Assembly (NCBI GenBank): GCA_045106195.1
Contig: JBGCEH010000001.1
Span: 105,887 to 169,886, forward strand
From: Granulosicoccus sp.
GTDB lineage: Bacteria; Pseudomonadota; Gammaproteobacteria; Granulosicoccales; Granulosicoccaceae
DNA: 64,000 nt
Direction: 5' to 3'
Shown here: piece by piece, positions 32,782 to 62,667 of the stretch
Layout of the letters: every line of letters begins with the position of its first letter
How positions within the stretch are numbered: position 1 is the first letter of the stretch
Notes under the pieces: generated by a model
The model's database searches: none
Seen by the model: the letters and a program-made list of their open reading frames with translations, nothing else
Told to the model about the DNA's origin: nothing
Position numbers and translations under genes: made by a program

Positions 32782-32787
32782 CATCTC

Positions 32788-34314
32788 ATGAGCGGTAAAA
32801 ACCCGATACAAGGTGAGCGCAAGCAGGCCGTCTACGCAGCCATCGATCTGGGCTCAAACAGCTTTCACATGATGATTGCCGAACCCGAGGGTAGCTCTAT
32901 CCGCAAGGTTGACAGCCTGCGAATGCCCACTCGCCTTGGCGCCGGGCTCGATGAAAACAAGTGCCTCAAACCTGAAACTCTGAAAGTGGCGCTGGATGCG
33001 CTTGCGAAATATGCAGAGCGTCTGCGTGATGTTCCCAGAAAAAACATCAGCATGGTCGGCACCAATACACTTCGTCGGGCAATGAATCGTGACGAGTTCA
33101 TGCAGAAAGCAAAACAAATCCTTGGTGTGCCCATCCAGATCATATCCGGAAGAGAAGAGGCGCGCCTGATCTACACCGCTGTTTCACATACATTTCCCGA
33201 TAGCAATCGTCAGCGCCTGGTTCTGGACATTGGAGGTGGTAGTACCGAGATGGTCATCGGTAAAGGCTTTGAACCGAAGCTTCTGGAAAGCGTCAACATG
33301 GGCTGCGTCAGTTACACCAGCCAGTTTCTATGCGGTGAACAGGGCATTACCGCTGTCACCATGAAACGCGCAACAGTTGAAGCAGAACTCGAACTGCAGC
33401 CATTGATGGTCGCTTACAAGGAATGCGGATGGGATGAAGTCATAGGCTGCTCGGGAACCATAAAAGCTGCTTCACGCATGCTGGCAGAACTCGGCATCAC
33501 CGACGGTGCCATTACAAAAGACGGACTGAAACGTCTGGTAAAAGAGATCGCCAAAGCCGGCAGCGTAGCAACCATGAATCTGCACAGCGTCAGCGAGAGT
33601 CGTGTTCAGGTAGTCGCTGGCGGTATCGCTGTGTTGCGCGCCATCATGAAAACCTTGAACATCGAGGTCATGCAGGCCAGCCAGGTAGCTCTGCGAGAAG
33701 GTCTTGTGTTCGAGATGCTTGGCAAGGCAGAGCATGTCGATATCCAGAGCCAGACACTGACCAATCTTTCTCAGCGTTATTCAATTGATGAGCGGCAAGC
33801 AAAACGTGTTGAGATTACGGCGACCAAACTTTTCAATCATGTTGCGGATCCTTGGAATCTTGCGACCGATTCAGACCTGCCTCTGTTGCAATGGGCAGCA
33901 CAACTGCATGAGCTAGGCATGGGTGTCGCCCACACCCAGTACCACAAACATGGCGCTTATATCCTGGAAAACTCGGACCTGCTGGGTTTTACACTTGCCG
34001 AGCAAAAAGCGCTGGCTCTGCTAGTACGATTTCACAGACGCAAGATAGACAACACAGCCTTCGATGGTCTACCCGCAGAAGAGCGTGACAGACTATTGCG
34101 CTTGCTTGGCTTGTTGCGTCTGGCGGCTCTGCTACATCGTGGCCGCTATGACGATTCGCTGGATGAGGTCAATGTCCGGATCAATCAAGGACAAATAACC
34201 GTCATCGCCCCACAAGCCTGGCTTGATTCTCATCCACTGACTCATGCCGAGCTACAAGCTGAAGCTGAACGATTCATGCACATTGAAATCCAGCTTAAAG
34301 CCGAGAACAGCTAA
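32788..34314 (+). CDS. ppx: Exopolyphosphatase (Ppx/GppA family)
   Basis: AAIDLGSNSFHM, ISGREEARLIY, DIGGGSTE, LREG, HD-like WAAQLHELG. Confidence 0.95.
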   Translation: MSGKNPIQGERKQAVYAAIDLGSNSFHMMIAEPEGSSIRKVDSLRMPTRLGAGLDENKCLKPETLKVALDALAKYAERLRDVPRKNISMVGTNTLRRAMNRDEFMQKAKQILGVPIQIISGREEARLIYTAVSHTFPDSNRQRLVLDIGGGSTEMVIGKGFEPKLLESVNMGCVSYTSQFLCGEQGITAVTMKRATVEAELELQPLMVAYKECGWDEVIGCSGTIKAASRMLAELGITDGAITKDGLKRLVKEIAKAGSVATMNLHSVSESRVQVVAGGIAVLRAIMKTLNIEVMQASQVALREGLVFEMLGKAEHVDIQSQTLTNLSQRYSIDERQAKRVEITATKLFNHVADPWNLATDSDLPLLQWAAQLHELGMGVAHTQYHKHGAYILENSDLLGFTLAEQKALALLVRFHRRKIDNTAFDGLPAEERDRLLRLLGLLRLAALLHRGRYDDSLDEVNVRINQGQITVIAPQAWLDSHPLTHAELQAEAERFMHIEIQLKAENS

Positions 34315-34320
34315 TCTTGG

Positions 34321-36447
34321 CTAGTGGTGCGTACGACCACCACCATAACGATTAATCAGGAACTGCTGAGCGCTGAAGGGCACATCGTTGTCCGGTTGAA
34401 GTCTTTCGTAACGCCCTTCGGCGTTTAGCTGCCAGGCAAACTTGTTATCCTTCAGATAGATATCAAGACACTCCTCCTTTACACGCCGCAATGCTTCGTC
34501 TTCCAACGGTACAGCAATCTCGACACGATTGAAGAAGTTACGCGGCATCCAGTCGGCACTACTGATATATAGCTGCTCCCGCCCTTTATTATTGAACCAG
34601 AACACCCGTGAATGTTCAAGAAAACGTCCCAGAACAGACACCACCCGAATATTCTCTGACACGCCAGGCAATCCCGGCTTTAACATACAGATCCCACGCA
34701 CTACCAGCTCCACAGTAACGCCTGCTTGTGATGCCTTGTACAAGGCATCAATGACGCCTGGGTCTACCAGTGAATTCATTCGTGCGATAACATGCCCATC
34801 ACCGCCGTCTCTGGCAATTTTTGTCTCATTGCCGATACGCTCCAGTATATATTTATGCAATGTAAACGGGGCTTGAATAAGCTGCTTCAAGTTTAGCGCC
34901 TGCCCCAACCCAGTCAGTTGAGTAAACACACGATTAACATCTTCCGTTATCGATTTACTGTTAGTAAGCATGCTCATATCCGTATAAGCTCGGGCCGTTG
35001 TGGCATGATAATTACCCGTCCCCACATGCACGTAACGCACAAGCTTTTGCTTTTCACGCCGAACCACCAACAGCATTTTGGCGTGCGTTTTGAAACCCAC
35101 AACGCCGTAAACCACTTGTATCCCAGACTCTTGTAAACGAGTGGCGAGCTCAATATTGGCTTCTTCGTCAAAGCGTGCACGTAGCTCGATAACCACAGTG
35201 ACATCCTTGCCCGCCCGTGACGCTTCCATCAAGGAGCTGACAAACACTGATTCATGACCCGTACGATAAAGCGTCTGCTTGATAGCCAACACATCCGGAT
35301 CTGCCGCCGCCTGACGAATGAGTTCAATGACGGGGACATACGATTCATAGGGATGATGAAAGAGCAATGGCCCACGCTGCGCAATATGCTCGAAGATATT
35401 TACGCCAGATTCAAATGCATTGGCAACGTGTGGTGTAAACGATGGGTACTTCAGATCAGGCCGATCTATCTCATCCGGTATGGCAAACAGACGATTAAGA
35501 TTCACAGGCCCATTCACACGGTACACAGACTCATCACGTAACTTGAATTGCCGTTGCAGGTACTTGACGATGCGGTTCGGACAATTGCCTGCCACTTCAA
35601 GCCTGACTGCCTGTCCGAAATTGCGTTGCACCAGTTCTGTCTCCAAAGCACGCCGCAGGTTAGCGACCTCTTCTTCAGAAACATACAGATCGCTGTTGCG
35701 CGTCACCTTGAATTGATAGACACCCACTGGGTCCATACCGCTGAATAGCTGGCTGATCTGCGAATGTATGATGGATGATAGAAACACAAATCCATCACGT
35801 ACCCCACAAATTTCAGATGGCACACGAATAACGCGCGGCAACGATCTGGGGGCACGTACGAGCGCAAACCCCGAGTCACGTCCGAAAGCATCCTGGCCAC
35901 GAAGGTCAATGATAAAACTCAAGCTTTTGTTGGTAATGCGCGGAAACGGATGTGCAGGATCCAGACCCAGAGGGCTTAGCACCGGTGCAATGTCAGAGAT
36001 AAAGAAATCCTTTATCCATTCCCGCATGCTTTCATCCCAGCTTTGACGCGGAAAGAAACGAATATCCTGATCTGCCAACTCAGGCAGCAGCACATCATTC
36101 AGCAATTTATACTGATGTTCAACCAGTGCACGACAATCCTGGTTAATGCCCTCCATCTCCTGCATGGGCGACAGACCATCGATACCAGCGCCCTCCATGC
36201 CACCTTCGATCTTCTGCATGAGCCCGGCTACCCGAATCTCGAAGAACTCATCCAGGTTACTGGAGGAAATGCACAGAAAACGCAGCCTTTCCAGCAACGG
36301 TACCTGCGGATCACTGGCCAGTGCCAGAACACGTTCATCGAATGCCAGAAAGCTCAGCTCGCGATTAGCCAGCGCTAGACCCTGATACTGACGGCGCGAC
36401 CATTGCTCAGGCCCGGTTGCCGACGGCGTTCGTTTCTTGGTATTCAT
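34321..36447 (-). CDS. ppk1: Polyphosphate kinase 1
   Basis: NRELSFLAFDERVL, SSNLDEFFEIRVAGL, HHPYES, IKQTLYRT, ARFDEEANI, KTHAK, LEHSR, SADWMPRN. Confidence 0.97.
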   Translation of the reverse strand: MNTKKRTPSATGPEQWSRRQYQGLALANRELSFLAFDERVLALASDPQVPLLERLRFLCISSSNLDEFFEIRVAGLMQKIEGGMEGAGIDGLSPMQEMEGINQDCRALVEHQYKLLNDVLLPELADQDIRFFPRQSWDESMREWIKDFFISDIAPVLSPLGLDPAHPFPRITNKSLSFIIDLRGQDAFGRDSGFALVRAPRSLPRVIRVPSEICGVRDGFVFLSSIIHSQISQLFSGMDPVGVYQFKVTRNSDLYVSEEEVANLRRALETELVQRNFGQAVRLEVAGNCPNRIVKYLQRQFKLRDESVYRVNGPVNLNRLFAIPDEIDRPDLKYPSFTPHVANAFESGVNIFEHIAQRGPLLFHHPYESYVPVIELIRQAAADPDVLAIKQTLYRTGHESVFVSSLMEASRAGKDVTVVIELRARFDEEANIELATRLQESGIQVVYGVVGFKTHAKMLLVVRREKQKLVRYVHVGTGNYHATTARAYTDMSMLTNSKSITEDVNRVFTQLTGLGQALNLKQLIQAPFTLHKYILERIGNETKIARDGGDGHVIARMNSLVDPGVIDALYKASQAGVTVELVVRGICMLKPGLPGVSENIRVVSVLGRFLEHSRVFWFNNKGREQLYISSADWMPRNFFNRVEIAVPLEDEALRRVKEECLDIYLKDNKFAWQLNAEGRYERLQPDNDVPFSAQQFLINRYGGGRTHH

Positions 36448-36463
36448 TTTCGTTTATTGGCGA

Positions 36464-38837: not shown

Positions 38838-39626
38838 ATGGCAGCAAAGCGTAAAGCCAGAGAACTTACTGTGACAGCCACACGGCATGTCACGCCTAAC
38901 ATGCTCAGGTTGACTCTACACGGTGAGGATCTGAATGGATTTCCTGACGATGCGGAAGGTGCTTATTTCAAATTGGTTTTTGAGGGTACTGATGCACAAA
39001 GACCTGTAATGCGAACTTACACCGTGGCGAAGTTTCGTAAAGAACTGCAAGAGATCGACGTTGACTTCATGCTTCACAGCAACTCCAATGGCGTCACTGA
39101 CGGTGTTGCAGCACCCTGGGCTATGCAGGCAAAAGTGGGCGATAGCATGTCGATTTTCGGGCCGGGACCCGCAACGTATGTGAACAGTGAGGCAGACTGG
39201 TTTTTGCTCGCTGCCGACATGACGGCTTTGCCAGCGTTGACTGCCAACCTGGCGCTGTTACCGAGTAATGCGACGGGCTACATGGTGGTAGAGATCCTCG
39301 CTGAAGACGACAAGCAGGAACTTCCTGTGCCGAAAAACATGGAAGTCATATGGGTGGTCAACCCCCATGCAGGCTCCAATGACTCACCTTTGTTTGACGC
39401 CATCGGAAAATTACAATGGCTGGATGGTCAGGTAGCCGTGTGGACGGCCTGTGAATTCAAGACGATGAAGAAGATTCGCCAGTACTACCGCGAGCAACGT
39501 TCCGTGCAGAAATCTCATCTTTATGTTTCCAGCTATTGGAAAAAAGGGCTTAAGGAAGAGGAGCATAAAATAGCAAAGAAGGAGGACGGTGGCGGTGCAG
39601 CGGTTCCTCCACCACCTTCAGTTTGA
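38838..39626 (+). CDS. Siderophore-interacting protein (FAD-binding, ViuB/YqjH family)
   Basis: VTPNMLRLTL, MRTYTV, DFMLH, GPG, ADMTALPA, YVSSYWKKG. Confidence 0.92.
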   Translation: MAAKRKARELTVTATRHVTPNMLRLTLHGEDLNGFPDDAEGAYFKLVFEGTDAQRPVMRTYTVAKFRKELQEIDVDFMLHSNSNGVTDGVAAPWAMQAKVGDSMSIFGPGPATYVNSEADWFLLAADMTALPALTANLALLPSNATGYMVVEILAEDDKQELPVPKNMEVIWVVNPHAGSNDSPLFDAIGKLQWLDGQVAVWTACEFKTMKKIRQYYREQRSVQKSHLYVSSYWKKGLKEEEHKIAKKEDGGGAAVPPPPSV

Positions 39627-39648
39627 ACAGGCACGAGGGACTGATAGC

Positions 39649-40266
39649 GTGACATGTTCAGCGTGTGGTGTGGGTAAGAACAAAGGGGATTACTGCAACT
39701 ACTGTGGCACCTTGTACCCTGAGGCATTGAAGGCTGACCAGGCTCAATCTACTGCGCCTGTAAGTTCACTTGCCAGTAAGTATCAGGTTGAACGTACGCA
39801 GGATAGTCTGAGCATCTGGTGGAATTGGCGCAGCTTGCCATTGTTGGCGTTTCTTGCTTTCTCTGTGTTCTGGATGTACATCGCTACCAGTTCAGGCTCG
39901 ATATGGCCCACACTCGTCGGGGTCGTCATGATTGTGTATATCGTCATTCAGTTTGTGAACCGAACCACCATTAATGTGACTAATAATGGACTCAGCATTC
40001 ATCATCGCCCTATTCCTTGTCGTAAGGGGTTTAAATTCCACGTTGGCAATATTCAGCAGATCTACGTTTCAAAAGAACAAAAGCGTTCCAAGAATAGAAT
40101 ATGGCATGCCCCTGCTTTACAACTGGTAACCAGTGACGGAAAACGACACGCTATTTTGAAAGGTCAGTCCGAAACTGAGTTTGCGGATTTCGAAGCGCTA
40201 CGTCGGAAGATTCTGTCAGAACTCGGGATTGAGCCGAGAAGTGCTTTTGGTGAGTTTTCAGAGTAA
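39649..40266 (+). CDS. Hypothetical membrane protein with N-terminal zinc ribbon
   Basis: GTG 39649 with SD GAGGGA; CSAC...CNYCG, two TM helices, PH-like C-terminal region. Confidence 0.72.
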   Translation: MTCSACGVGKNKGDYCNYCGTLYPEALKADQAQSTAPVSSLASKYQVERTQDSLSIWWNWRSLPLLAFLAFSVFWMYIATSSGSIWPTLVGVVMIVYIVIQFVNRTTINVTNNGLSIHHRPIPCRKGFKFHVGNIQQIYVSKEQKRSKNRIWHAPALQLVTSDGKRHAILKGQSETEFADFEALRRKILSELGIEPRSAFGEFSE

Positions 40267-41193: not shown

Positions 41194-42150
41194 TTACTCC
41201 AGTCGGCGGTAAAAAAAATCACCTAACAACGGTGTCAGATACATCGGTATCTGGTAACAGGCGATGAACAGCAATAAGGGTTCAGTGAAAGATACTGGCA
41301 ATGCCGTTAAATACAAGGCAACGTTTCGATTACCGTAGATCACTCCGGTACCAATAATACGAGCAGGTTGATGTTTTATCACTCTGGCCGTACTCGCACC
41401 CAGTAGCTGGAATCCTGCATTTATGGTAACGGCTGCCGCAAGCGCGACGAGGAAATCGCGCATCGTTGTGTCCGGGGCATGTAATGCGCTCATAAGGCCG
41501 ATGACCATCAAGGCAAGGGTAATGGCGGATGCGCCGTCCAGTGCTTGCAGGGATAACGAGAACTGGTTTTTTTTTGCAAAGCGCGTACTCAACACACCTG
41601 CGATGGTGGCTGTAAGGATTAACAACAATAGTTTCAGGGACGGCAGTAGCAGACCATTCAGCGGCTGGTCAGAGAACGCTATCATCAGAACCGGCAGGCA
41701 TGTGAGTGGCAACAGAACGGTGCCGGCGATTAACCAGCGCAACGCCAGTGCGCCATCTCCCTTCAACAGGGTCACAAGGCTAGGGCTTCCGGATATGGGA
41801 GACGCAGCCGCTACGAGGGTTGCGGCCAAGCGCCAGATATCGGGCAAACCGATTAGCGTGGCCAGCGAGAATACCGCGAGTGGGAAGACAAGTTGCGCTA
41901 TCAGTACGCGGGTGATGAGGGCCTGCCATTTGTCAGACTGTAAATCGCCGGAGACGCCGACGGCGTCTGATGTCAAAGCCCCGCTGCTCGCCAAACGGAC
42001 GACTGAAAAAAAGAGCAACAGCCAGATGGATGGTCCGATCAGGCCGCTGAGAGGTTCTGCTGCCCATGGCAGTGTGAATCCTCCGACAAGACCCAGCGGC
42101 AGTACCCATCGCGCCTGCCTTCCACAGCACTCAAGGGCATGAAGGAGCAT
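41194..42150 (-). CDS. Polytopic membrane protein, bile acid:sodium symporter (BASS)-like
   Basis: About 9-10 TM segments, AASPISGSP.L..LLKGD and GNRN motifs resembling SBF-like transporters. Confidence 0.7.
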   Translation of the reverse strand: MLLHALECCGRQARWVLPLGLVGGFTLPWAAEPLSGLIGPSIWLLLFFSVVRLASSGALTSDAVGVSGDLQSDKWQALITRVLIAQLVFPLAVFSLATLIGLPDIWRLAATLVAAASPISGSPSLVTLLKGDGALALRWLIAGTVLLPLTCLPVLMIAFSDQPLNGLLLPSLKLLLLILTATIAGVLSTRFAKKNQFSLSLQALDGASAITLALMVIGLMSALHAPDTTMRDFLVALAAAVTINAGFQLLGASTARVIKHQPARIIGTGVIYGNRNVALYLTALPVSFTEPLLLFIACYQIPMYLTPLLGDFFYRRLE

Positions 42151-42175
42151 CAGTTTATCTGACTGGAGTCACTCA

Positions 42176-43612
42176 CTACCCTTTGAGCTTTTCCCTGAGT
42201 ATCTTATTCAACTGCGCCGGATTGGCTTTGCCTTTTGATGCTTTCATGACAGCACCAACGAAGAATGACAGCAATTTTTCCTTGCCGGCACGGTACTCGG
42301 CAAGTTGCGATGGGTTGGCTGCAATTACCTCGTCAATCATGGCCTCGATAGCACCGGTATCGCTGATCTGTTTAAGCCCACGGGCATCAATGATGGCATC
42401 GACGTTGGTTTCTCCGGACCATAGGGCGTCGAATACTTGCTTGCCGAGTTTTCCGGATAGCGTACCGTCATCAACACGGTTTATCAGCATACCCAATTCG
42501 GTAGCGGCAACAGGCATGTCAGACAGCTCAACATCCTCTTTGTTCATTCGCCCGAAAACCTCACCGAGCACCCAGTTTGAGGCAAGTTTAGGCGCGAAAC
42601 CTTGACCTTCCAGCACAGCTTCGAAGTAGTTGGCAGTTAGTTTGTCGGAGCACAATGCCTGTGCATCATCAGGCGGTATGCCCAGATCATCGATAAAGCG
42701 CTGACGGCGCACTGCCGGTAATTCAGGCATGGTCTTTGCCACGGCTTCGATAAAAGCATCATCGATGACCAGTGGCGGCAAGTCAGGGTCAGGGAAGTAG
42801 CGATAGTCATTGGCCTCCTCCTTCGAGCGCATGGAGCGGGTCTCATCCTTGTCCGCATCGTACAAACGGGTTTCCTGAACGATGCTGCCACCATCTTCCA
42901 GAATGTCAATCTGTCGCTCTACTTCGAAATCGATAGCTCTTTCCAGAAAACGGAAGGAGTTGACGTTTTTGATTTCGGTTCGTGTGCCCAGCTTCTCAGA
43001 ACCCACCGGGCGAACAGACACGTTGGCATCACAGCGGAATGAGCCTTCCTGCATGTTGCCATCGCAGATGTCTATGTATTGCACCAGCGAGTGGATGTAA
43101 CGAGCATAGGCTACCGCCTCGGTGGCTGAACGCATGTCGGGCTCGGAGACGATTTCCAGCAGAGGGGTTCCAGCGCGATTCAAATCGATGCCTGTAGAGC
43201 CTTCGAACAGGTCGTGGACAGATTTGCCTGCGTCTTCCTCCAAGTGTGCACGGGTAAGGCCGATGCGCTTTTCAGTGCCATCAGGGAGAGTGACGGTGAT
43301 TGCGCCCTCGCCGACTATCGGATGCGACATCTGGCTGATTTGATAGCCTTTAGGCAGATCGGGATAGAAGTAGTTCTTGCGCGCGAATACGGAGTATTTG
43401 CCGATGTGTGCGTCGGTTGCCAGTGCGAATTTGACTGCCATGCGAACAACGTCTTTGTTGACCACTGGCAATACACCCGGAAGACCCAGGTCCACAGCGC
43501 TTGCCTGTGTATTGGGCTCCGACCCAAAGGCTGTTGAAGCCGTCGAAAATATCTTTGATCGAGTTGCCAGCTGCGCGTGAATTTCAAGCCCGATGACGGT
43601 TTCCCATTCCAT
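42176..43612 (-). CDS. gatB: Asp-tRNA(Asn)/Glu-tRNA(Gln) amidotransferase subunit B
   Basis: [52 protein letters not shown]; start 43612 or 43618 (track 43684). Confidence 0.98.
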
Positions 43613-43622
43613 AGCCATACCC

Positions 43623-45080
43623 TCACTCAATGCCGGCTGGTGACTGCGCATGCCAGTCGGTGATCTGCTGGTATCGATGCGCAATGTTCAAAAGCTGCGC
43701 CTCTTCATAGGCAGGCGCAACCAGTTGCAGACCGATGGGTAGGCCTTCGCTAAATCCGCACGGCACAGATATACCCGGCAGACCGCTGAGATTAGCTGAT
43801 ACGGTAAACAGATCGTTCAGGTACATACTGGTGGGGTCACTGTGTTTTTCTCCGCTTTTGAAGGCGGTGGTAGGCGTTGTCGGACCCGCGATAAGATCAA
43901 CATTCTTGAAGGCTTCAGAGAAATCGTTGCTCACGAGCTGCCGCACTTGTTGAGCTTTCAGATAATAGGCATCGTAGTAGCCGGCAGACAAGGCATAAGC
44001 ACCGATCAGTATCCGGCGCTTGACCTCTTTGCCAAAGCCTTCGCCGCGCGTGCGCGTATAGAGATCTTCCAGATTTTGCGGGTTTTCGCAGCGATAGCCG
44101 AAACGTACACCGTCGAATCGCGATAGGTTGCTGGATGCTTCTGCCGGTGCTATGACATAGTAGGCTGGAATACAGTGTTGCTGGTTAGGCAAGCTGACGG
44201 GTTTTAGCACCGCACCGGCTTTTTCCAGTTCGGCAAGCGCTGACTGGACATGCGTTGCTATTACAGGGTCAAGGCCTTGACCGAAGTACTCATTAGGAAT
44301 GCCGATACGCAGACCGTTGAGATCGTTTTCGAGGGCGACACTGAAATCCGGTACCGCGGCTGTACTGCTGGTGGAATCTCTGACATCGTGTCCAGACATG
44401 GCTTGTAACAATAAAGCACAGTCTTCGGCTGTGCGGGCCATGGGTCCGCCCTGATCAAGACTGGACGCAAAGGCGATCATCCCGTAGCGCGATACTCGGC
44501 CATAGGTTGGCTTGATGCCGGTGATTCCACAGAAGGCCGCAGGTTGCCGGATGGATCCGCCCGTGTCGGTACCAGTGGCGCCAGACGCCAGTTGGGCAGC
44601 GACGAGGGCAGCACTGCCACCGGATGACCCGCCAGGCACCCTGTCGTGTTGCCAGGGATTGGCCACGGGTCCGTAGTAGCTGTTTTCGTTGGAGGATCCC
44701 ATGGCGAATTCATCCATGTTGGCCTTGCCCAGCATAACGACCCCGGCGGAACTCAGCTTGTCGACCACAGTGGCGTTATAAGGCGCTTTAAAATTCTCCA
44801 GAATTCGCGAGCCGCAGGTGGTGGCAATTCCTTTTGTACAGAAAATATCCTTGTGTGCGATGGGAATACCTGTGAGGGGGCCTGCATTTCCAGATGCGCG
44901 GGTATTGTCAGCTTTCACGGCTGCGGCTTTAGCGCCTTCCACATCCACATGCAGATAGGCATTGATTGCGGGGTTAAGGCGTTCAATGCGCTCAAGATAG
45001 TGATTGACCAGCTCCGCACTGCTTATCTCGGAAGTCTGGAGCATGGCGGCCTGCTGGGCCAGTGTCTTTTGCGAAATCAT
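43623..45080 (-). CDS. gatA: Amidotransferase subunit A
   Basis: [42 protein letters not shown]. Confidence 0.98.
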
Positions 45081-45364
45081 TCGATTACTCTCGGCACGAG
45101 GAAATAGCCGTCCCGGGTTTCAGGGGCCGGCGCCTGAAGGATTTCGCGCTGGTCGATCTCGGTGACCTCATCTTCGCGCAGCCACAGGCTTGCACTGGCA
45201 GGATGGGCCATGGGCTCGACGCCTTTAGTGTCGATGGCCTGTAACTGCTCCACCAGAGAAAGAACACTGGAAACGTCAGCCGCCAGCGGTGCCAGATCAT
45301 CGGGCTCTATACCAACGCGCGCCAGATGCGCGATGGCTGCAATATCATCAGGAGTTAATGCCAC
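45077..45364 (-). CDS. gatC: Amidotransferase subunit C
   Basis: [14 protein letters not shown]...[11 protein letters not shown]...LREDEV...FLVPRVIE; GTG 45364. Confidence 0.96.
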
Positions 45365-45465
45365 GGTATGCCTTCGGAGGAAGTAAACGGGCAAACGTAT
45401 CATAAATAGGTTTGCAACTGCCTTGTCAAATGGTCAAAATTACCCGCCTAGTCAGGAATCAACTC

Positions 45466-45684
45466 GTGTCAAGCAACGAATACAGCCAGCGCATCGAAAC
45501 CCTTGAACTCAAACTCATGGATCTCGAGAACACCGTCCAGGAGCTCAATGAGGTCATCCTCCGTCAGTATCGGGACATCGAACGTTTGCAACTGCAGCAG
45601 GAGGAGTTATTGCGCCATTCGACAGGTGGAGCACCATCCGGGGCCGTGCCAACCGCTATTGATGAACTGCCGCCACATTACTAG
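45466..45684 (+). CDS. slyX: SlyX family protein
   Basis: RIETLELKLMDLENTVQELNEVI...PPHY; GTG 45466 with SD AGGA; upstream TTGCAA-17-CAAAAT (45412-45440). Confidence 0.9.
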   Translation: MSSNEYSQRIETLELKLMDLENTVQELNEVILRQYRDIERLQLQQEELLRHSTGGAPSGAVPTAIDELPPHY

Positions 45685-45706: not shown

Positions 45707-46300
45707 CTAGCGGCCGAGAATAAGGGTCATGCCGTCTATTGCGTATTGCGGTACTTTAAGGTTTTCGGTCGCGTATTGGCCGCTGTAAACGCGCCCGGCA
45801 AGATCGTATCGATCCTTACCGCAACTGTCCATGAATCCACCGCTCCACGGGCGCTCCTGAAAACTCTCACTGCTTGCAGGGACATGCGCAACGGTGCATC
45901 CCTGCCCTGTGCCGAGGGCTATGGCAACAAAGTAGTCAACCGATTCGGATCGAAGCGCATTTTTGGCGAAAGCGGGTTGTTCGGAGCGGGCAGAATCCGG
46001 ATCCATAAGGCGGCTATCACCTGTGCGCAAAGAGACTATATCAGCATCACTTCGTCGATACACCAGCACAGGACGGCCTTCCCACGTCATAAAGTCAATC
46101 TCGCCAGGCTCAATATTGCTGATGTCCACCCGCAGGCTCGGCACACTGGGCACCTCTCCATCCCCAGACATTATGGCCGATACGAAGACGTACGCGACAC
46201 CTGCAAAACCAAGGTACATCATCATCTTGGCAGCCACTCTCAACCTAAGACGTCGTCTGGCGTCTTCGCTTGTTGCGGGTTTTATGTGGGAATTCTGCAC
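45707..46300 (-). CDS. PetA-like Rieske-fold protein lacking all [2Fe-2S] ligands (pseudo-Rieske)
   Basis: RRR leader + TM helix, VDISNIEPG, TWEGRPVLVYRR, DPDS..S.QP....N..RS, box I GTGQGC, WSGGF, box II DSCGKD, RYDLAGRVY, NL.VP.Y; GTG 46300 preferred (track 46363). Confidence 0.85.
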   Translation of the reverse strand: MQNSHIKPATSEDARRRLRLRVAAKMMMYLGFAGVAYVFVSAIMSGDGEVPSVPSLRVDISNIEPGEIDFMTWEGRPVLVYRRSDADIVSLRTGDSRLMDPDSARSEQPAFAKNALRSESVDYFVAIALGTGQGCTVAHVPASSESFQERPWSGGFMDSCGKDRYDLAGRVYSGQYATENLKVPQYAIDGMTLILGR

Positions 46301-46341
46301 AGCGATGGACGGATGAAAACCGGTATGCAGAGTGTACGTTA

Positions 46342-47112
46342 ATGATGGATGTATGGACGCCACCGACGGTTGTTACCTCTGAGCGGATGAACCACGCTCG
46401 GCTGGACCCAGACTATAGAGCAGACAAGGACTGGTTACTGACTCGCGAAGATTCACAGGCGTCGGCCTTGTCATTGGTTCGGCCAGATGGCGTCAGTCTG
46501 ACAATTGATTTCACTGCTGGTAAGGCCAGGTATCGCACCACGCAGAGTGGCATGGGGGCTCAGGCATTGTCGAGGGCGCTAGGGGTCAAGCAATTCAAGA
46601 AAATAAATGGCTATAGTCCCACTATTGTTGACGCTACCGGTGGCCTTGGCCAGGACGCGTGGGCGTTGGCCTCTACAGGCTGCACGCTAATCCTGATTGA
46701 GCAACATGACATTGTTCACGCCTTGCTGGCAGACGGGCTTGAGCGTGCACTGGCGAATGACGAATGCGCAGCTGTTGCAAAGCGTATTACTCTGCTGCAG
46801 GGTGAGGCGACCGAGAAACTGGATGCATTGCCCATGAACAATGTACATGCCATCTACCTTGACCCGATGTACCCGGAAAGACGCAAAAAAGCCAACAGCA
46901 AGAAAGGAATGCAATTTCTACACGCCCTGCTTGGCCCACCCTCTACAAATGACCCTGCACTGCTTCTTGCAGCTTTGGACTCTGGTGTTTCCAGGGTAGT
47001 CGTGAAACGGCCTAAAGGCGCCCCCTTGCTGGCAGGGACCGAGCAGTTCAGAGGTCAGAGAACCGTCATTGAATCGCCGAATACCCGGTATGACGTTTAT
47101 CACAGCAAGTGA
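46342..47112 (+). CDS. rsmJ: 16S rRNA m2G1516 methyltransferase (RsmJ/YhiQ)
   Basis: IDF..G...YR, VDATGGLGQDAWALAS.G, IYLDPMYP, RVVVKRP; start 46342 or 46387. Confidence 0.9.
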   Translation: MMDVWTPPTVVTSERMNHARLDPDYRADKDWLLTREDSQASALSLVRPDGVSLTIDFTAGKARYRTTQSGMGAQALSRALGVKQFKKINGYSPTIVDATGGLGQDAWALASTGCTLILIEQHDIVHALLADGLERALANDECAAVAKRITLLQGEATEKLDALPMNNVHAIYLDPMYPERRKKANSKKGMQFLHALLGPPSTNDPALLLAALDSGVSRVVVKRPKGAPLLAGTEQFRGQRTVIESPNTRYDVYHSK

Positions 47113-49297: not shown

Positions 49298-49451
49298 GCG
49301 AAAAATTTACAATTGACTAACCCATATTCTCCTCCCCATATTGCGTTTCTGGCATTGATTTGGCTATCTACATCTCGTGTCGAAACCGAGATAGCCAAAT
49401 CCTCAGGTACCGACAGTTCGATGGTAGAAACGTTAGAGGAAATTTAAGATT

Positions 49452-49994
49452 TTGTTAAACGAAAAAAGTAGTCTTTACAATAAATTTCAGCATGATCAGG
49501 CTGCTCCATTGGAGTCGGAATCACAAAACCACAGCAGCAATTTTCATTCGCTCCAGGCTCGGAACAAAGCACTACTGACAAGTTGCACGAATATTCAGGC
49601 GCAGATGAGTGAAAACGTAGAAAACCGCGCAAAAGCCAAAGGGCGGCTTAGTAAAATCTATCGCTTACTGGCGCAGCGCACTTTTGCTGAAGAGAGAGCG
49701 GCCCCCTATCAGGCACAGTTGCAATCTATCCGGGACGACATTCTGGATCTGGAAAAGGAACACATCGTTCTCCACCAGCAATTCATTAATATCCAGTCTC
49801 AATTCCGGGAGACCGTTAAAAACCAACGACGCGATCTGATGGAGACGATCAACAGAACGCGAGCGAAGGCATCGATGGTTCGAAGTGGAAATATGCTTGT
49901 CTCCAACATGACGGTCGGACAACCGGCAAATAGCGACAGTTCATCCGATGACAGTTCTACGCAGACAGATTACAAGCTCTGCCTAAGGGCATAG
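49452..49994 (+). CDS. Hypothetical coiled-coil protein (no recognisable family)
   Basis: 180-aa ORF with heptad-rich central helix filling an otherwise empty gap; start uncertain. Confidence 0.55.
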   Translation: MLNEKSSLYNKFQHDQAAPLESESQNHSSNFHSLQARNKALLTSCTNIQAQMSENVENRAKAKGRLSKIYRLLAQRTFAEERAAPYQAQLQSIRDDILDLEKEHIVLHQQFINIQSQFRETVKNQRRDLMETINRTRAKASMVRSGNMLVSNMTVGQPANSDSSSDDSSTQTDYKLCLRA

Positions 49995-59754: not shown

Positions 59755-62118
59755 TCATGCAGGATCACATGCGAGCATGCCGTTCAGGATGCTTATTGTT
59801 CCCGAACACTTGATTCCCTGATGTCCCGATTCTAATATATTGGCTTTAGGCAGCCTTACCACGAAACGAGCACCATCCGTGTAATTGGTATCCACATGTA
59901 TCGACCCCTCATGGATATTCACGATTCGCCGGCAGATTGACAGACCCAGTCCTGACCCCTCAACGTCCTTTTTCTTATTCAACCTCACGGACGGTTTGAA
60001 TACCTGATCAGCGTACTTGACAGGGATTCCAATCCCATTGTCGGACACAGATATTTCTATCCATTGATTGTCAACATCAATACTATCTACTCTTATGACA
60101 GCATGTTTATTATTTGCTGTGTAATTTAGAGCGTTGCAGATCAAATTGAGAAACAAACTGGTAATCAGACTTTTCTCACCGATTACGTGATGGCTGATAT
60201 CAATCAATATGGTCGCGTCATCATGCGCTACCTGCGTCTTTGTTACCTTTTGGATGTCGCTGAAAATTTCTGCCAGATCAGTCGGCGCAAACGCTTGAGC
60301 TGCGTCAGGTACGCTCATGTAATCAAGTATCCCGGCAGTAAAATTCTTCAATATACGGGTTGAGTCTTTCGCGAGATCGTGCCATTCACGCATCGTATCA
60401 GCATCGAATTTGTCTTCTTCCATGACATTCAGCGCCATTTCAATCTGACGCAATGGTGCCTTTATATCGTGTGCGGCTGCACTTGCCGCAAAAGATTTCA
60501 AACGTGAGCTCTCTTCTGCCCGTATCAGTACTGAGACAAGAATATCGAGAAATTCTCTTACAATTTCCCGGGCAATGATCAGTTCTGCATCTGTCCAGGC
60601 CTGAGAAAAATCATTGTGTTCACCAATCCATCCGGCCAAAGAGTTTCGCGACATCAAGGCGGCGGTACCATCGTGTCCCTCGGCATTAAATTTAGCCGTT
60701 ACCTCTTCAGCCCAATCGATATTTTCCGCTAAGGGCCTACGGAACCAGATCATCTGGCAAGTCCGATGAAGAGCGATAGGTTGAAGCAGCACACCGCAAG
60801 CTGAATCTCTATGTTGTTCAGCCTCGGGCCAGTGCCTGTGTAGAGAACAGGTCTGATATTGTTCCCTCTCATCAGCCTCTGCGCGCACCCATTCAATAAG
60901 CTCAGGTATGAACTCCCTGGGAGGGGTGTGTCCCGTTAGATGAATCTCATCACCGTATTGAAAAGCAAATCCATCCGCATCCATAAACTTCATTAGCGAT
61001 GGACCAAACTCGTCAACAACATCCATAAGTTTGCCTTTTTGCCGCAAATCGCTGGCCAGGTTAATTTCCATCTTGCGTAAGTCCAGAACCCTCTTACTGG
61101 CAATGCGCTTTACGTCATGTGCGATTCGATTTGAAAGGGCAAGGCCCAACTCCCGCAGCGAAGTCCACAAGTCAAAAGGCAAAGCTCTGGACTCATCATG
61201 ATGACAAACGATTAAGCCCCAAGGCTTGCCATCGAGAAAAAGACTTATCGAAAACGATGCTTCGACCTCCATGTTCTGCAAATAGCAAGTGTGCATCGAT
61301 GATACCGAACGCAGTAAAGAATAATTGAGGTCCGGAGGAACCTCATTGTTTTGTGAATACTGCAAAATATCATGCGTCTCACCATGCGCACTGAATATTG
61401 CGCAATATGGCACTGAATTGAACAAGGCGCGTGCTTGCCTGGATATATCAGTATCAGGAAAATGCAAACCCAGAAAGCTGGGCATATGCTCTTCACGGGA
61501 TTCAGCGACGACCCTAACCGACCAGTCGGGCAGATATTGATAGATTTTCACACGGGAAAAACCTGTTATATCACGCGTTGCATTACAGGCAATCTGCAGC
61601 GATTCATCAAGAGTCGTTGAACTCAATATACGATCACATTCCCGCGAAATAACGCGCATACCCCGCCTCACATCATGCACATCAAGATGAGAAGCAGGCA
61701 TAAGTTCGATCACCCAGCGGGCCTGGTAACCATGAACAACAACATCGAAGACAGTACTTTTATTCATGATCTGTACATCAAGAACGCTATGGACACCAAT
61801 CTGATCTGGGTCAAGTTCTGAAAGCTCAGCGGTTAGCGCCTCTATCCAGTCTTTATCAAAATCTGACAAAGAGGTATCCAGTATGTCAACGTGACCTATG
61901 CCAAGAATATCAAGCATGTTTCGACTATACGCAACGATACTCAACGCGCTTTGACAAACAATCAACATGGCACCTTCACACTGCACTGCGCCAAGTAAAC
62001 GCACTTGCTCACGATGGCAAGGATTAATTTCTGTCTGAGGAGTCTGGCTGAAAAATGTAGAAAGTGAAGCAACACTCTCTTCAGGTAGCTGTTCTTGAAT
62101 CTTGATAGCTGTTTTCAT
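59755..62118 (-). CDS. Bacteriophytochrome-like PAS-GAF-PHY histidine kinase with atypical motifs
   Basis: NPCHREQV..LGAVQ.EG, RVKIYQY, FLGLHFPDTDISRQARALF, LRSVSSMH..YLQNM, WGLIVCHH, MDADG, H-box AHDIKAP, N/G boxes; ATG 62118 (track 62211). Confidence 0.9.
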   Translation of the reverse strand: MKTAIKIQEQLPEESVASLSTFFSQTPQTEINPCHREQVRLLGAVQCEGAMLIVCQSALSIVAYSRNMLDILGIGHVDILDTSLSDFDKDWIEALTAELSELDPDQIGVHSVLDVQIMNKSTVFDVVVHGYQARWVIELMPASHLDVHDVRRGMRVISRECDRILSSTTLDESLQIACNATRDITGFSRVKIYQYLPDWSVRVVAESREEHMPSFLGLHFPDTDISRQARALFNSVPYCAIFSAHGETHDILQYSQNNEVPPDLNYSLLRSVSSMHTCYLQNMEVEASFSISLFLDGKPWGLIVCHHDESRALPFDLWTSLRELGLALSNRIAHDVKRIASKRVLDLRKMEINLASDLRQKGKLMDVVDEFGPSLMKFMDADGFAFQYGDEIHLTGHTPPREFIPELIEWVRAEADEREQYQTCSLHRHWPEAEQHRDSACGVLLQPIALHRTCQMIWFRRPLAENIDWAEEVTAKFNAEGHDGTAALMSRNSLAGWIGEHNDFSQAWTDAELIIAREIVREFLDILVSVLIRAEESSRLKSFAASAAAHDIKAPLRQIEMALNVMEEDKFDADTMREWHDLAKDSTRILKNFTAGILDYMSVPDAAQAFAPTDLAEIFSDIQKVTKTQVAHDDATILIDISHHVIGEKSLITSLFLNLICNALNYTANNKHAVIRVDSIDVDNQWIEISVSDNGIGIPVKYADQVFKPSVRLNKKKDVEGSGLGLSICRRIVNIHEGSIHVDTNYTDGARFVVRLPKANILESGHQGIKCSGTISILNGMLACDPA

Positions 62119-62667
62119 TTGTAGACTAGTTTTTTCAATATTGGTTTTCAAACAATTCCAAATAACTTGCCTGTAAGACTCGACTCCACAGTCTTGTCTA
62201 TGTTCGAACATCCGAACCGTCCATCGACACCAACAGGAATTTTCATGATGCTTTTTAGCACTGGCAATAGCTGCACAAAAAATACCAAAACCTGTTTATA
62301 TCAGCGCGCGCGTAACCGATATTATCTGTCCATCGTATTCCAGACTGTAACTAGTGTAGTGGAACATACAAAATGTACATTCAGATTTATAACAGTTACA
62401 AGGATATGAAAAAGGCATTAACCCTGCTTTGATTTCACGAAAAAAAAGTATTATGCGAAAACGCCAAAACACAATAGAGAACTCAGGCCAACCGAGTGCC
62501 GTACTCAAATCATGAATTCTGGAAGACGTTTTTGATCGATTTCGTCTATTTAAAAAGTGAATTTCCGGGACGATGCCATCGACTGAGTACAACCAAAACG
62601 ATCATTGATCAAAATTGCTAGCCAACTCACCATTTCATTGCGTAAGAGCCGGGATGCAGAAGGCGAC

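What the first reader, a model, noticed from the sequence alone, without database searches (positions are those of the whole stretch)
45707..46300. Pseudo-Rieske protein: PetA scaffold with all four Fe-S ligands removed but the disulfide kept
Seen: collinear similarity to gammaproteobacterial PetA over the whole length (RRR + TM anchor, VDIS.IEPG, W.G.PV...RR, DPDS..S.QP, W.GGF, YDLAGRV, NL.VP.Y). Box I CTHLGC reads GTGQGC (45913-45896) and box II CPCHGS reads DSCGKD (45829-45812). Established: the first Cys and the His of each box bind [2Fe-2S], while the other two Cys form the stabilising disulfide. Exactly the four ligands are gone and exactly the two disulfide Cys remain in an intact ORF, which looks like selection rather than decay. 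No petB/petC is adjacent. Inference: a cofactor-less Rieske paralogue acting as a bc1 assembly placeholder, a dominant-negative regulator of bc1, or a periplasmic thiol/ligand-binding protein. I know of no characterised example.
Basis: partly seen in the sequence, partly recalled or inferred. Interest (0 to 1): 0.8.

Follow-up and report, generated by a model that had tools for sequence, protein, structure and literature searches.

The report
Cluster-less Rieske (PetA) paralogue family
This intact, conserved gene encodes a copy of the respiratory Rieske iron-sulfur protein that has lost all four iron-binding residues but kept its shape, membrane anchor and disulfide; it belongs to a large unnamed family in marine Gammaproteobacteria whose job is unknown.

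Summary
Window 45707-46300 (-) encodes a 197-aa protein collinear with beta/gamma-proteobacterial PetA. Box I reads GTGQGC and box II DSCGKD: all four [2Fe-2S] ligands are gone and both disulfide cysteines are kept.

It is not a decaying pseudogene.
- 97 close homologues, and 23 Granulosicoccaceae genomes in the species scan, show the same loss in the same genomic slot (rsmJ / gene / slyX / gatCAB).
- dN/dS is 0.10-0.17.
- AlphaFold models have pLDDT about 92 and match bc1 Rieske subunits.

A profile search shows the family is much larger: about 100 clusters at 50% identity, with GC 46-75%. Its consensus is G-T-D-x-G-C / D-x-C-R-G-S.
- The two former His positions covary as an Asp/Arg pair.
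- A Tat-like RR motif is kept.
- The anchor-plus-neck length equals that of true PetA.
- No Pfam or NCBIfam model exists, and some members are mis-named as functional ISP.

It is never next to cytochrome b/c1.

Function is inferred only. I read it as a non-redox, membrane-anchored periplasmic pseudo-subunit, most likely still fitting the bc1 ISP geometry.

I could not establish whether the same genomes carry a canonical petABC, nor whether the gene is expressed. A partial precedent exists: the in-operon "deranged" ISP of Acidocella.

The parts
45707..46300 (-). Pseudo-Rieske CDS: 197 aa, GTG start at 46300, stop codon at 45707-45709
   Evidence: ORF. Start inferred from homologue N-termini. 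Matches TIGR01416 at E 1e-25, below its cutoff. No Pfam hit. AF2 pLDDT 92.
46226..46258 (-). N-terminal basic motif R15-R-R-L-R-L-R-V-A-A-K25, a Tat-like (R/K)R-L-x-L-R-V-x-x-K
   Evidence: Column counts in 96 family representatives: R16 59 + K 15, R17 78, L20 85, R21 68, K25 90. It aligns with the RRxFL of PetA.
46169..46234 (-). Hydrophobic membrane anchor (about residues 23-44), part of the predicted helix 11-44
   Evidence: AF2 secondary structure H11-44. Full-length superposition of the family on the ISP of 8smr.
46136..46168 (-). Neck/tether (about residues 45-55). Its sequence is not conserved but its length is.
   Evidence: pLDDT 68 for residues 41-50. Conservation is 0.21, yet the RR-to-WxG distance has median 55 and IQR 55-56, against 56 and 55-56 in canonical PetA.
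45710..46135 (-). Periplasmic Rieske-fold head domain (residues 56-197)
   Evidence: Foldseek: 7yr9_A rmsd 1.9 A, TM(target) 0.90. bc1 ISP chains fill the top 50 hits.
45947..46003 (-). Conserved segment D100-P-D-S...S.QP..A.N..R-S118, shared with long beta/gamma-type PetA
   Evidence: Conserved in both the pseudo and canonical groups.
45896..45913 (-). Former box I, GTGQGC (canonical CTHLGC). Cys ligand became Gly, His ligand became Gly, and disulfide Cys135 is kept (45896-45898).
   Evidence: Alignments. C135 is invariant.
45812..45829 (-). Former box II, DSCGKD (canonical CPCHGS). Cys ligand became Asp, His ligand became Gly, and disulfide Cys160 is kept (45821-45823).
   Evidence: Alignments. 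C160 is invariant. The ex-Cys position carries Asp or Glu in nearly all family representatives.
45767..45781 (-). Former Pro loop: GQYAT in place of G-x-P-A-P
   Evidence: The family consensus is x-Q-x-A-x; the canonical consensus is PAP.
46342..47112 (+). Divergently transcribed rsmJ-like SAM methyltransferase, the constant neighbour of the family (start at 46342 or 46387)
   Evidence: PF04445 in orthologous loci. Adjacent in about 50 loci.
45412..45684 (+). Convergent slyX-like small coiled-coil gene, followed by gatCAB (42176-45403, -)
   Evidence: PF04102 and GatC/Amidase/GatB in orthologous loci. Synteny.

Best explanation
SHOWN:
- The gene is a selectively maintained descendant of the long (beta/gamma-proteobacterial) cytochrome bc1 Rieske subunit PetA.
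- It has lost all four [2Fe-2S] ligands.
- It keeps the whole ISP architecture: a basic RR-type N-terminus, one membrane helix, a neck of unchanged length, and a Rieske-fold head with the two loop-bridging cysteines.
- It is one member of a large, unnamed family that is vertically inherited next to rsmJ in Granulosicoccaceae and other marine Gammaproteobacteria.

INFERRED:
- The protein is inserted N-in with the head in the periplasm, possibly still through Tat.
- The two cysteines form the canonical disulfide there.
- The empty cluster pocket is filled by side chains. In most of the family this is Asp plus an Asp-Arg pair; in the window's clade the pair has been reduced to Gly/Gly.
- It therefore cannot carry electrons and acts as a non-catalytic structural pseudo-subunit.

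MOST LIKELY MECHANISM (inference, about one chance in three):
It still fits the ISP slot of a cytochrome b/c1 core, or a respiratory supercomplex built on one. There it would serve as a placeholder, stabiliser or negative modulator. This would explain why anchor-plus-neck length and the PetA-specific head surface are held constant while the redox tip is not.
For: Homology and fold:
- Sequence matches.
- AF2 pLDDT 92.
- Foldseek top hits are all bc1 ISPs, with the head at rmsd 1.9 A to TtPetA.
- A main-type relative superposes full length on P. aeruginosa ISP 8smr_Z at TM 0.78 and rmsd 3.8 A.

Ligand loss is universal:
- All close homologues.
- 105 of 152 aligned sequences (150 representatives, the window protein and PetA P0102) have 0 ligands and 2 Cys.
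- C135 and C160 are invariant.
- 83 of 96 have exactly two Cys.

Selection:
- dN/dS is 0.10-0.17 in unsaturated pairs, like the neighbouring rsmJ at 0.11-0.22.
- The ORF is intact in 23 Granulosicoccaceae genomes and 29 metagenome loci.
- The synteny is constant.

Pocket filling:
- The ex-His columns covary. D/R occurs in 51 of 105, against 7 R without D; Fisher p 1e-11, not corrected for phylogeny.
- The ex-Cys columns are G + D/E.

The fold does not need the cluster: Zn-TtPetA shows the site is pre-formed before the cluster goes in (PMC10492824).

ISP geometry is retained:
- RR-to-WxG distance has median 55 and IQR 55-56, against 56 and 55-56 in canonical PetA.
- A regex check gives a mode of 56 against 55.
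- This holds although neck sequence conservation is only 0.21.
- PetA-conserved head residues are retained.
- The Tat-like motif is conserved.

Precedent: a ligand-less ISP kept for a proposed structural role (PMC10715153).
Against: - There is no direct evidence of any partner.
- The gene is never adjacent to petB/petC in about 55 loci.
- PF10399 (ISP N-terminal/TM region) and PF00355 do not detect it.
- The PetA motif at the periplasmic end of the helix (PF..S..P) is not kept.
- All three loops that dock on cytochrome b and c1 are remodelled.
- I could not show that a canonical petABC exists in any genome carrying the gene. The three candidate PetAs I followed belonged to, or grouped with, other taxa, or could not be placed.
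- Expression is untested. No RNA run holds the gene, and runs X4/X5 behave like DNA and Hi-C.
- The constant tether length could reflect a different conserved partner.
Confidence: 0.35

Rival explanations
1. A bc1-independent periplasmic module. After duplication the Rieske head, tethered to the inner membrane, was re-used as a binding or scaffold domain for an unrelated envelope or periplasmic partner. The ISP-like features are inherited baggage plus constraints from the new partner.
For: - It is never linked to petBC; its constant neighbours are housekeeping genes (rsmJ, yajQ, slyX, mreBCD, gatCAB).
- The TM/N-terminal Pfam model of ISP no longer matches.
- The remodelled tip is itself well conserved in most of the family as GTDxGC and DxCRGS (box conservation 0.58 and 0.64). 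That would suit a new binding surface.
Against: - The new tip motif is not kept in the window's own clade, where it is G/G instead of D/R. A tip-based function would have to have changed again.
- Tether length is identical to that of ISP.
- No candidate partner is suggested by gene context.
Confidence: 0.33
2. It is still a cofactor or redox protein of a new type. The conserved acidic residues (Asp at the ex-Cys position, Asp at the ex-His position) would bind a metal ion, or the Cys pair would work as a redox-active disulfide rather than a structural one.
For: - An acidic residue sits at the ex-Cys box II position in nearly all representatives.
- A Tat-like motif is retained, and Tat export is typical of proteins that fold or take up cofactors in the cytoplasm.
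- The Rieske pocket can hold Zn in TtPetA.
Against: - The D/R covariation looks like a salt bridge, not a metal site.
- The window's clade has Gly at both ex-His positions.
- No other Cys or His is conserved.
- The Cys pair occupies exactly the structural-disulfide columns.
Confidence: 0.12
3. It is the only ISP of these bacteria: a 'deranged' bc1 as described for Acidocella, with petA moved away from petBC. In that case it is not an extra paralogue.
For: - I found no canonical PetA attributable to Granulosicoccaceae among the hits I could inspect.
- A split petA / petBC arrangement is known in acetous bacteria.
Against:
- G. antarcticus is described as obligately aerobic, and 7 of 8 kelp Granulosicoccus MAGs carry pufLM reaction centres (PMC9238374). 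By established knowledge of purple-bacterial cyclic electron flow, these need a working bc1.
- The family is old and diverse, which is unlike a recent derangement.
Confidence: 0.08
4. It is a recently inactivated petA pseudogene that happens still to be an open frame.
For: All four ligands are gone. It scores below the TIGR01416 cutoff.
Against: - The same loss appears in every relative down to 30% identity.
- dN/dS is 0.10-0.17.
- The ORFs are intact and syntenic in more than 50 loci.
- The fold prediction is confident.
Confidence: 0.02

Closest known systems
PetA, the Rieske iron-sulfur subunit of proteobacterial cytochrome bc1 (TIGR01416; long beta/gamma type, e.g. P. aeruginosa 8smr chain C, T. 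tepidum PetA 7yr9)
   Same: - Length and collinear sequence (32-44% identity).
- RR-type N-terminus, single helix, neck length and Rieske head fold.
- Disulfide cysteines.
- The DPxS..QP..RS segment and the YDLAGRV / NL.VP.Y C-terminus.
   Different: - All four cluster ligands and the Pro loop are replaced.
- PF00355 and PF10399 do not match.
- It scores below the TIGR01416 cutoff.
- It is a stand-alone gene next to rsmJ rather than in petABC.
'Deranged' ISP of Acidocella and related acidophilic Acetobacteraceae (Degli Esposti et al. 2023, PMC10715153)
   Same: A bc1-type ISP that lacks three or four [2Fe-2S] ligands yet keeps the two disulfide cysteines. A structural, non-catalytic role has been proposed for it.
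   Different: - That protein is the operon's own petA, beside a cytochrome b that has also lost haem ligands, in Alphaproteobacteria.
- It is read as degeneration of the whole complex.
- Here the gene is separate from petBC, gammaproteobacterial, ancient and diverse (about 100 clusters at 50% identity).
- Here it is under purifying selection and has its own conserved replacement motif.
Zn-bound 'immature' TtPetA (PDB 7yr9; PMC10492824)
   Same: It is the best structural match of the head (rmsd 1.9 A). It shows that the Rieske cluster-binding loops are pre-formed without [2Fe-2S].
   Different: It is a normal PetA caught without its cluster, and the ligands are present.
Cluster-less Rieske-fold small subunits such as NirD (Pfam Rieske_2), recalled from my own knowledge
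   Same: Rieske folds that often lack ligands and serve as structural subunits of redox enzymes. This is an analogy for how the present protein might work.
   Different: They are soluble cytoplasmic domains with no TM anchor and no disulfide, and they are not PetA-derived. No Pfam match was found here.

Membership tests
Cytochrome bc1 Rieske ISP (PetA; TIGR01416 / PF00355 + PF10399) | Box I C-x-H and box II C-x-x-H ligands of the [2Fe-2S] cluster | tested here: not met
   GTGQGC and DSCGKD stand opposite CTHLGC and CPCHGS.
Cytochrome bc1 Rieske ISP (PetA; TIGR01416 / PF00355 + PF10399) | Scores above the curated family cutoffs | tested here: not met
   TIGR01416 gives 90.7 bits against a cutoff of 97.4. 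There is no Pfam hit even at E 10.
Cytochrome bc1 Rieske ISP (PetA; TIGR01416 / PF00355 + PF10399) | ISP architecture: N-terminal helix, neck and Rieske head, with the loop-bridging disulfide cysteines | tested here: met
   AF2 pLDDT 92. Foldseek hits are bc1 ISPs. The Cys columns are invariant. Tether length equals that of PetA.
Cytochrome bc1 Rieske ISP (PetA; TIGR01416 / PF00355 + PF10399) | Twin-arginine (Tat) signal anchor | tested here: inconclusive
   An RR-L-x-L-R motif is present and conserved. Export route cannot be tested in silico here.
Cytochrome bc1 Rieske ISP (PetA; TIGR01416 / PF00355 + PF10399) | Encoded with cytochrome b / c1 (petABC), or shown to assemble with them | tested here: not met
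   No cyt b/c1 homologue lies in the window or in about 55 family loci. Physical assembly is not testable with these tools.
'Deranged' ISP of acidophilic Acetobacteraceae (PMC10715153) | Lacks 3-4 cluster ligands and keeps the disulfide cysteine pair | tested here: met
'Deranged' ISP of acidophilic Acetobacteraceae (PMC10715153) | Is the petA of a petABC operon whose cytochrome b is also degenerate; alphaproteobacterial lineage | tested here: not met
   The gene is stand-alone beside rsmJ in Granulosicoccaceae and other Gammaproteobacteria. It derives from the long beta/gamma ISP type.
Ligand-less PetA-like family defined here (consensus G-T-D-x-G-C ... D-x-C-R-G-S) | Zero cluster ligands, both disulfide Cys, an acidic residue at the ex-Cys box II position, and YDxAGR | tested here: met
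   The window has G/G, D/G, C135, C160, D158, D166, G169 and R170.
Ligand-less PetA-like family defined here (consensus G-T-D-x-G-C ... D-x-C-R-G-S) | Asp/Arg pair at the two ex-His positions | tested here: not met
   The window and its nearest clade have Gly/Gly (GTGQGC / DSCGKD). Other Granulosicoccaceae and most of the family have D/R. The window is therefore a derived sub-variant.
Ligand-less PetA-like family defined here (consensus G-T-D-x-G-C ... D-x-C-R-G-S) | Genomic position adjacent to rsmJ within yajQ..rsmJ..X..slyX..gatCAB | tested here: met
NirD-type cluster-less Rieske domains (Pfam Rieske_2) | Match to the Pfam model; soluble cytoplasmic small subunit | tested here: not met
   No Pfam hit. 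The protein has a membrane helix and is PetA-like throughout.

The most novel reading that the evidence does not exclude
The family is a dedicated iron-free stand-in for the Rieske subunit. It would be exported by Tat and slot into the cytochrome b/c1 core, or a bc1-oxidase or bc1-reaction-centre supercomplex. It would do so when Fe-S supply or redox conditions make the real ISP unavailable or undesirable. This would keep the complex assembled, or switch individual Qo sites off. That would be a natural, selected 'dummy subunit' regulator of complex III in marine bacteria.
Probability: 0.15. Interest if true: 0.85.

Novelty: new variant of a known kind. Interest (0 to 1): 0.6.

Why it matters
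The Rieske protein is the textbook mobile redox head of complex III.

A widespread, purifying-selected copy that keeps everything except the cluster would be a natural experiment. It separates what the ISP scaffold does apart from electron transfer: assembly, stabilisation of bc1 or supercomplexes, or gating of Qo sites. It would also add a clear bacterial example of a pseudo-subunit derived from a core respiratory protein.

The practical point is immediate. The family has no Pfam or NCBIfam model. Some members pass the TIGR01416 cutoff, and public records name them 'ubiquinol-cytochrome c reductase iron-sulfur subunit'. Metabolic reconstructions of marine Gammaproteobacteria can therefore wrongly score bc1 as present or duplicated.

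Tried and rejected
1. Finding the canonical PetA of Granulosicoccaceae, to prove paralogy. None of the three candidates I followed was Granulosicoccaceae.
- P0102: its relatives are named Halieaceae or Pseudomonadales.
- P0328: the best PetA by profile score, but it sits on an unplaceable 66%-GC contig.
- P0101: shares QPAFAKNA.RS with the window protein, but its named relatives are Legionella species and Ca. Synchoanobacter, in a petA-petB pair inside tol-pal.
- Matching 'longest contig' lengths between PetA hits and pseudo-Rieske contigs gave nothing.

2. Literature.
- Two searches on Granulosicoccus respiration gave only general statements.
- The supplementary tables of PMC9238374 held no bc1 terms.
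- Searches for 'pseudo-Rieske', 'cluster-less Rieske' and similar phrases found nothing.

3. Expression. No RNA run holds the gene. X4 and X5 show flat depth and GATC junctions, so they are DNA and Hi-C.

4. A metagenome scan with the 96-sequence alignment failed because no stretch was conserved enough. It was repeated with a 20-sequence main-type alignment.

5. A Biopython NJ tree with bootstrap timed out and was replaced by a numpy NJ. All 98 ligand-less sequences fall in one canonical-free split even with the boxes removed. Strict bootstrap support is weak at 15 of 200, so a single origin is likely but not proven.

6. Promoter and terminator scans of the region gave chance-level hits only.

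7. Gene context of the distant subtypes gave no recurring functional clue. These were DUF498/DUF429, and a 70-aa coiled-coil ORF + YcgL + DUF1015.

The disulfide distance and the Asp-Arg contact could therefore not be measured, only inferred from column identity and covariation.
Full report
WHAT IS AT THE SITE

The minus-strand ORF 45707..46363 is 218 codons from its first possible GTG. Every homologue begins about 21 codons later.

Searches with this protein gave the following:
- Pfam finds nothing, even at E = 10.
- NCBIfam finds only TIGR01416, the proteobacterial bc1 Rieske subunit, at E 1e-25 and 90.7 bits. This is just under the 97.4-bit cutoff, and the match covers profile positions 2-172 of 176.
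- Against PDB sequences the best matches are P. aeruginosa bc1 ISP (8smr_C, E 3e-25) and Thermochromatium tepidum PetA (7yr9_A, E 4e-23).

The printed alignments show GTGQGC opposite CTHLGC and DSCGKD opposite CPCHGS. Both ligand Cys and both ligand His are replaced (G, G, D, G). The last Cys of box I and the middle Cys of box II remain. These are the only two cysteines in the protein.

No PetA, cytochrome b or c1 homologue occurs anywhere in the 64-kb window.

IT IS A LIVING GENE, NOT A WRECK

A homologue search returned 97 proteins at 43-100% identity that carry no Pfam domain. Those that have names come from Granulosicoccus. They are followed, after a gap in score, by ordinary PetAs at 33-40% identity.

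All 46 of the close homologues that I aligned lack the four ligands and keep both cysteines.

A scan of one genome per GTDB species found the gene in 23 genomes. All are Granulosicoccus or Granulosicoccaceae, apart from one contig filed under a Halioglobus MAG that looks mis-binned.

In all 23 loci the gene sits in the same slot: yajQ, rsmJ (divergent), the gene, slyX (convergent), gatCAB.

Nei-Gojobori dN/dS for pairs whose synonymous sites are not saturated:

| Gene | dN/dS |
|---|---|
| this gene | 0.10-0.17 |
| rsmJ | 0.11-0.22 |
| gatC | 0.04-0.15 |
| yajQ | 0.01-0.04 |

An AlphaFold2 model built on the 47-sequence alignment has mean pLDDT 92. The former cluster loops score 96-97. The pseudogene reading is excluded.

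I searched a profile of the Granulosicoccaceae sequences against 1.84 billion cluster representatives. It found 120 clusters at E below 1e-30.

Aligning the best 150, together with the window protein and PetA P0102 (152 sequences), gave this breakdown:
- 105 with no ligand and both cysteines;
- 44 canonical PetAs, the first only at rank 66;
- three intermediates.

The family consensus is G-T-D-x-G-C and D-x-C-R-G-S. There are minor types: GTG[AM]GC/DPCDxS, GTSSGC/DxCDGS and ETxRxC/ExC[YHF]xA.

Across 96 representatives whose mean column identity is 31%, only five columns are invariant. They are the two cysteines plus D166, G169 and R170. Of these 96, 83 have exactly two cysteines.

Contexts fetched for distant members and from JGI metagenomes span GC 46-75%. 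In most loci long enough to show its neighbours, the gene again lies beside rsmJ. Usually it sits within yajQ..rsmJ..gene..slyX..(mreBCD)..gatCAB. Occasionally rsmJ is downstream and convergent. The gene is therefore old and vertically inherited in a sizeable gammaproteobacterial group.

The few named records say only 'Gammaproteobacteria bacterium'.

A neighbour-joining tree was built with both boxes and the Pro loop removed. It still places all 98 usable ligand-less sequences on one side of a split that contains no canonical PetA. Strict bootstrap support is weak, at 15 of 200. I treat a single origin as likely, not proven.

Neither Pfam nor NCBIfam has a model for the family.

WHAT REPLACED THE CLUSTER

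- The two former Cys-ligand positions are G plus D or E in nearly all members.
- The two former His-ligand positions covary strongly. Asp/Arg occurs in 51 of 105, and Arg without Asp in only 7. When box I is small (G, S, A, N), box II is usually Asp. Fisher p is 1e-11, uncorrected for shared ancestry.

In a real Rieske protein these two histidines touch the same iron. The covariation is therefore what a contact pair, that is a salt bridge, would give.

The window's own clade has lost both partners together: GTGQGC/DSCGKD, against GTDLGC/DSCRKA in other Granulosicoccaceae. This fits a pair. It also shows that the tip is not the seat of an indispensable chemical function.

The Pro loop GxPAP has become xQxAx.

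The fold can stand without the cluster. This is supported by the Zn-bound TtPetA structure, whose authors conclude that the binding site is formed before [2Fe-2S] goes in (PMC10492824). That structure is also the best structural match of the head, at rmsd 1.9 A and target TM-score 0.90.

WHAT IS RETAINED FROM PetA

Most positions conserved in canonical long-type PetA heads are also conserved in the family: W.GRPV, L.DP.S..S.QP..A.N..RS, FVA, W.GGF, YD.AGRV and NL.VP.Y.

The N-terminus carries a conserved [RK]R-L-x-L-R-V-x-x-K-L-M. This aligns with the Tat motif RRxFLK of PetA (R16 59 plus K 15, R17 78, L20 85, K25 90, all of 96).

Tether length is the most telling feature:
- The number of residues from the RR motif to the first head motif W.G has median 55 and interquartile range 55-56 in the family.
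- In canonical PetA it is 56, with range 55-56.
- An alignment-free regex count gives modes of 56 and 55.
- The neck sequence itself is the least conserved part of the protein, at 0.21.

A second model, for a main-type member, superposes on P. aeruginosa ISP over its full length, at TM 0.78 and rmsd 3.8 A.

Against continued bc1 binding:
- The ISP N-terminal Pfam model no longer matches.
- The PF..S..P motif at the periplasmic end of the PetA helix is gone.
- The gene is never found beside petB/petC.

HOW IT MOST LIKELY WORKS

Shown: a selected, cluster-less, PetA-derived protein with ISP architecture.

Inferred from established knowledge of ISP topology and biogenesis: N-in insertion, a periplasmic head, disulfide formation in the periplasm, and no electron transfer.

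My best single mechanism, held at roughly one in three, is this. The protein is a non-catalytic pseudo-subunit that still fits the ISP position of a cytochrome b/c1 core or a supercomplex. It would act as a placeholder, stabiliser or negative modulator. The argument rests on the unchanged tether length, the retained PetA head surface and Tat-like signal, and the general behaviour of cofactor-less paralogues.

Nearly as likely is a bc1-independent tethered periplasmic module.

Less likely are a new metal or redox-disulfide function, or that this is the cell's only ISP (a 'deranged' bc1).

GAPS I COULD NOT CLOSE

Whether the same genomes carry a normal petABC is the main gap. The three candidate PetAs I followed belonged to, or grouped with, other taxa, or could not be placed. 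The capped tools allowed no further attempts.

Indirect support for a working bc1 comes from PMC9238374. G. antarcticus is described there as obligately aerobic, and 7 of 8 kelp Granulosicoccus MAGs carry pufLM reaction centres. This is inference, not a test.

Expression is also untested. The only runs that hold the sequence behave like DNA and Hi-C libraries of a host organism and plant-associated metagenomes.

COMPARISON WITH WHAT IS KNOWN

It fails membership of functional PetA on the defining ligands, the curated cutoffs and the operon context. It meets the architectural features.

[quoted passage not shown] That one is the operon's own petA in an alphaproteobacterial complex whose cytochrome b is also degenerate. 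It is read as decay with a possible structural afterlife.

The present family differs in four ways:
- it is separate from petBC;
- it is gammaproteobacterial;
- it is ancient and diverse;
- it is under purifying selection with its own replacement motif.

Text searches for cluster-less or pseudo-Rieske proteins found nothing else. I therefore rate it a new variant of a known kind. It is interesting to bc1 specialists and useful for annotation, but its function is still open.

VERDICT

- Observation: confirmed.
- Interpretation: partly supported.
- Interest: 0.6.

Noticed in passing
P0272, P0289, P0345, P0270, P0324 (family members; no window coordinates): Ligand-less family members pass the TIGR01416 equivalog cutoff of 97.4 bits, scoring 98.1, 107 and 104.9. 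Public records such as MCB1755363.1 and MDJ0862694.1, and several JGI entries, name them 'ubiquinol-cytochrome c reductase iron-sulfur subunit'. This is a systematic mis-annotation risk.
   Followed up: partly
L036:4222-5948: A canonical petA plus a short (384-aa) petB, with no petC, is wedged inside a tol-pal cluster (tolA .. petA petB tolB pal ybgF queE). The contig has 49% GC, and the named relatives of its PetA are Legionella species and Ca. Synchoanobacter.
   Followed up: partly
P0345, P0330, P0353 (cluster representatives): These are intermediate forms. P0345 keeps both Cys ligands but neither His (CESLRC/CTCGGS) and falls outside the ligand-less clade. P0330 keeps only the second His, and P0353 only the first. 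Ligand loss may have happened more than once or stepwise.
   Followed up: partly
L009 (JBLHWG010000252.1): A contig filed under a 'Halioglobus sp.' MAG carries the Granulosicoccaceae arrangement. It is only dS 0.45 from Granulosicoccus locus L011, so it is probably a mis-binned contig.
   Followed up: partly
window 59758-62295 (-): A PAS_2-GAF-PHY-HATPase_c protein, that is a bacteriophytochrome-type histidine kinase. It is of interest because some Granulosicoccus are reported to be aerobic anoxygenic phototrophs.
   Followed up: no
window 32782-34311 (+) and 34324-36453 (-): A convergent ppx (exopolyphosphatase) / ppk (polyphosphate kinase) pair.
   Followed up: no
L026:6603-8642: Cytochrome b and cytochrome c1 are fused in one 679-aa ORF downstream of a canonical petA, in a Halieaceae-like genome (rplM-rpsI-petA-petBC-sspAB).
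   Followed up: no
L007:3618-8350; L004 and L005 between yajQ and rsmJ: Insertions of about 4.5-4.7 kb interrupt the otherwise constant yajQ-rsmJ-gene block in three Granulosicoccus MAGs. Their content was not examined.
   Followed up: no
L030:7770-7982, L031:11-220, L061:2017-2217: In the GTGAGC/DPCDQS subtype, a conserved 70-aa coiled-coil ORF with no Pfam match lies 19 bp upstream of the pseudo-Rieske gene. YcgL and DUF1015 follow downstream, which suggests a small operon.
   Followed up: partly
window 41197-42168 (-), 39574-40263 (+), 49437-49991 (+): Three sizeable ORFs have no Pfam match. The first, just downstream of gatB, also has an unannotated 311-aa counterpart in the same position in L001.
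   Followed up: no
window 46300-46387: The start of the pseudo-Rieske gene and the likely start of divergent rsmJ are only about 40-85 bp apart. Both promoters must therefore overlap coding sequence. The simple sigma-70 scan found nothing above chance there.
   Followed up: partly
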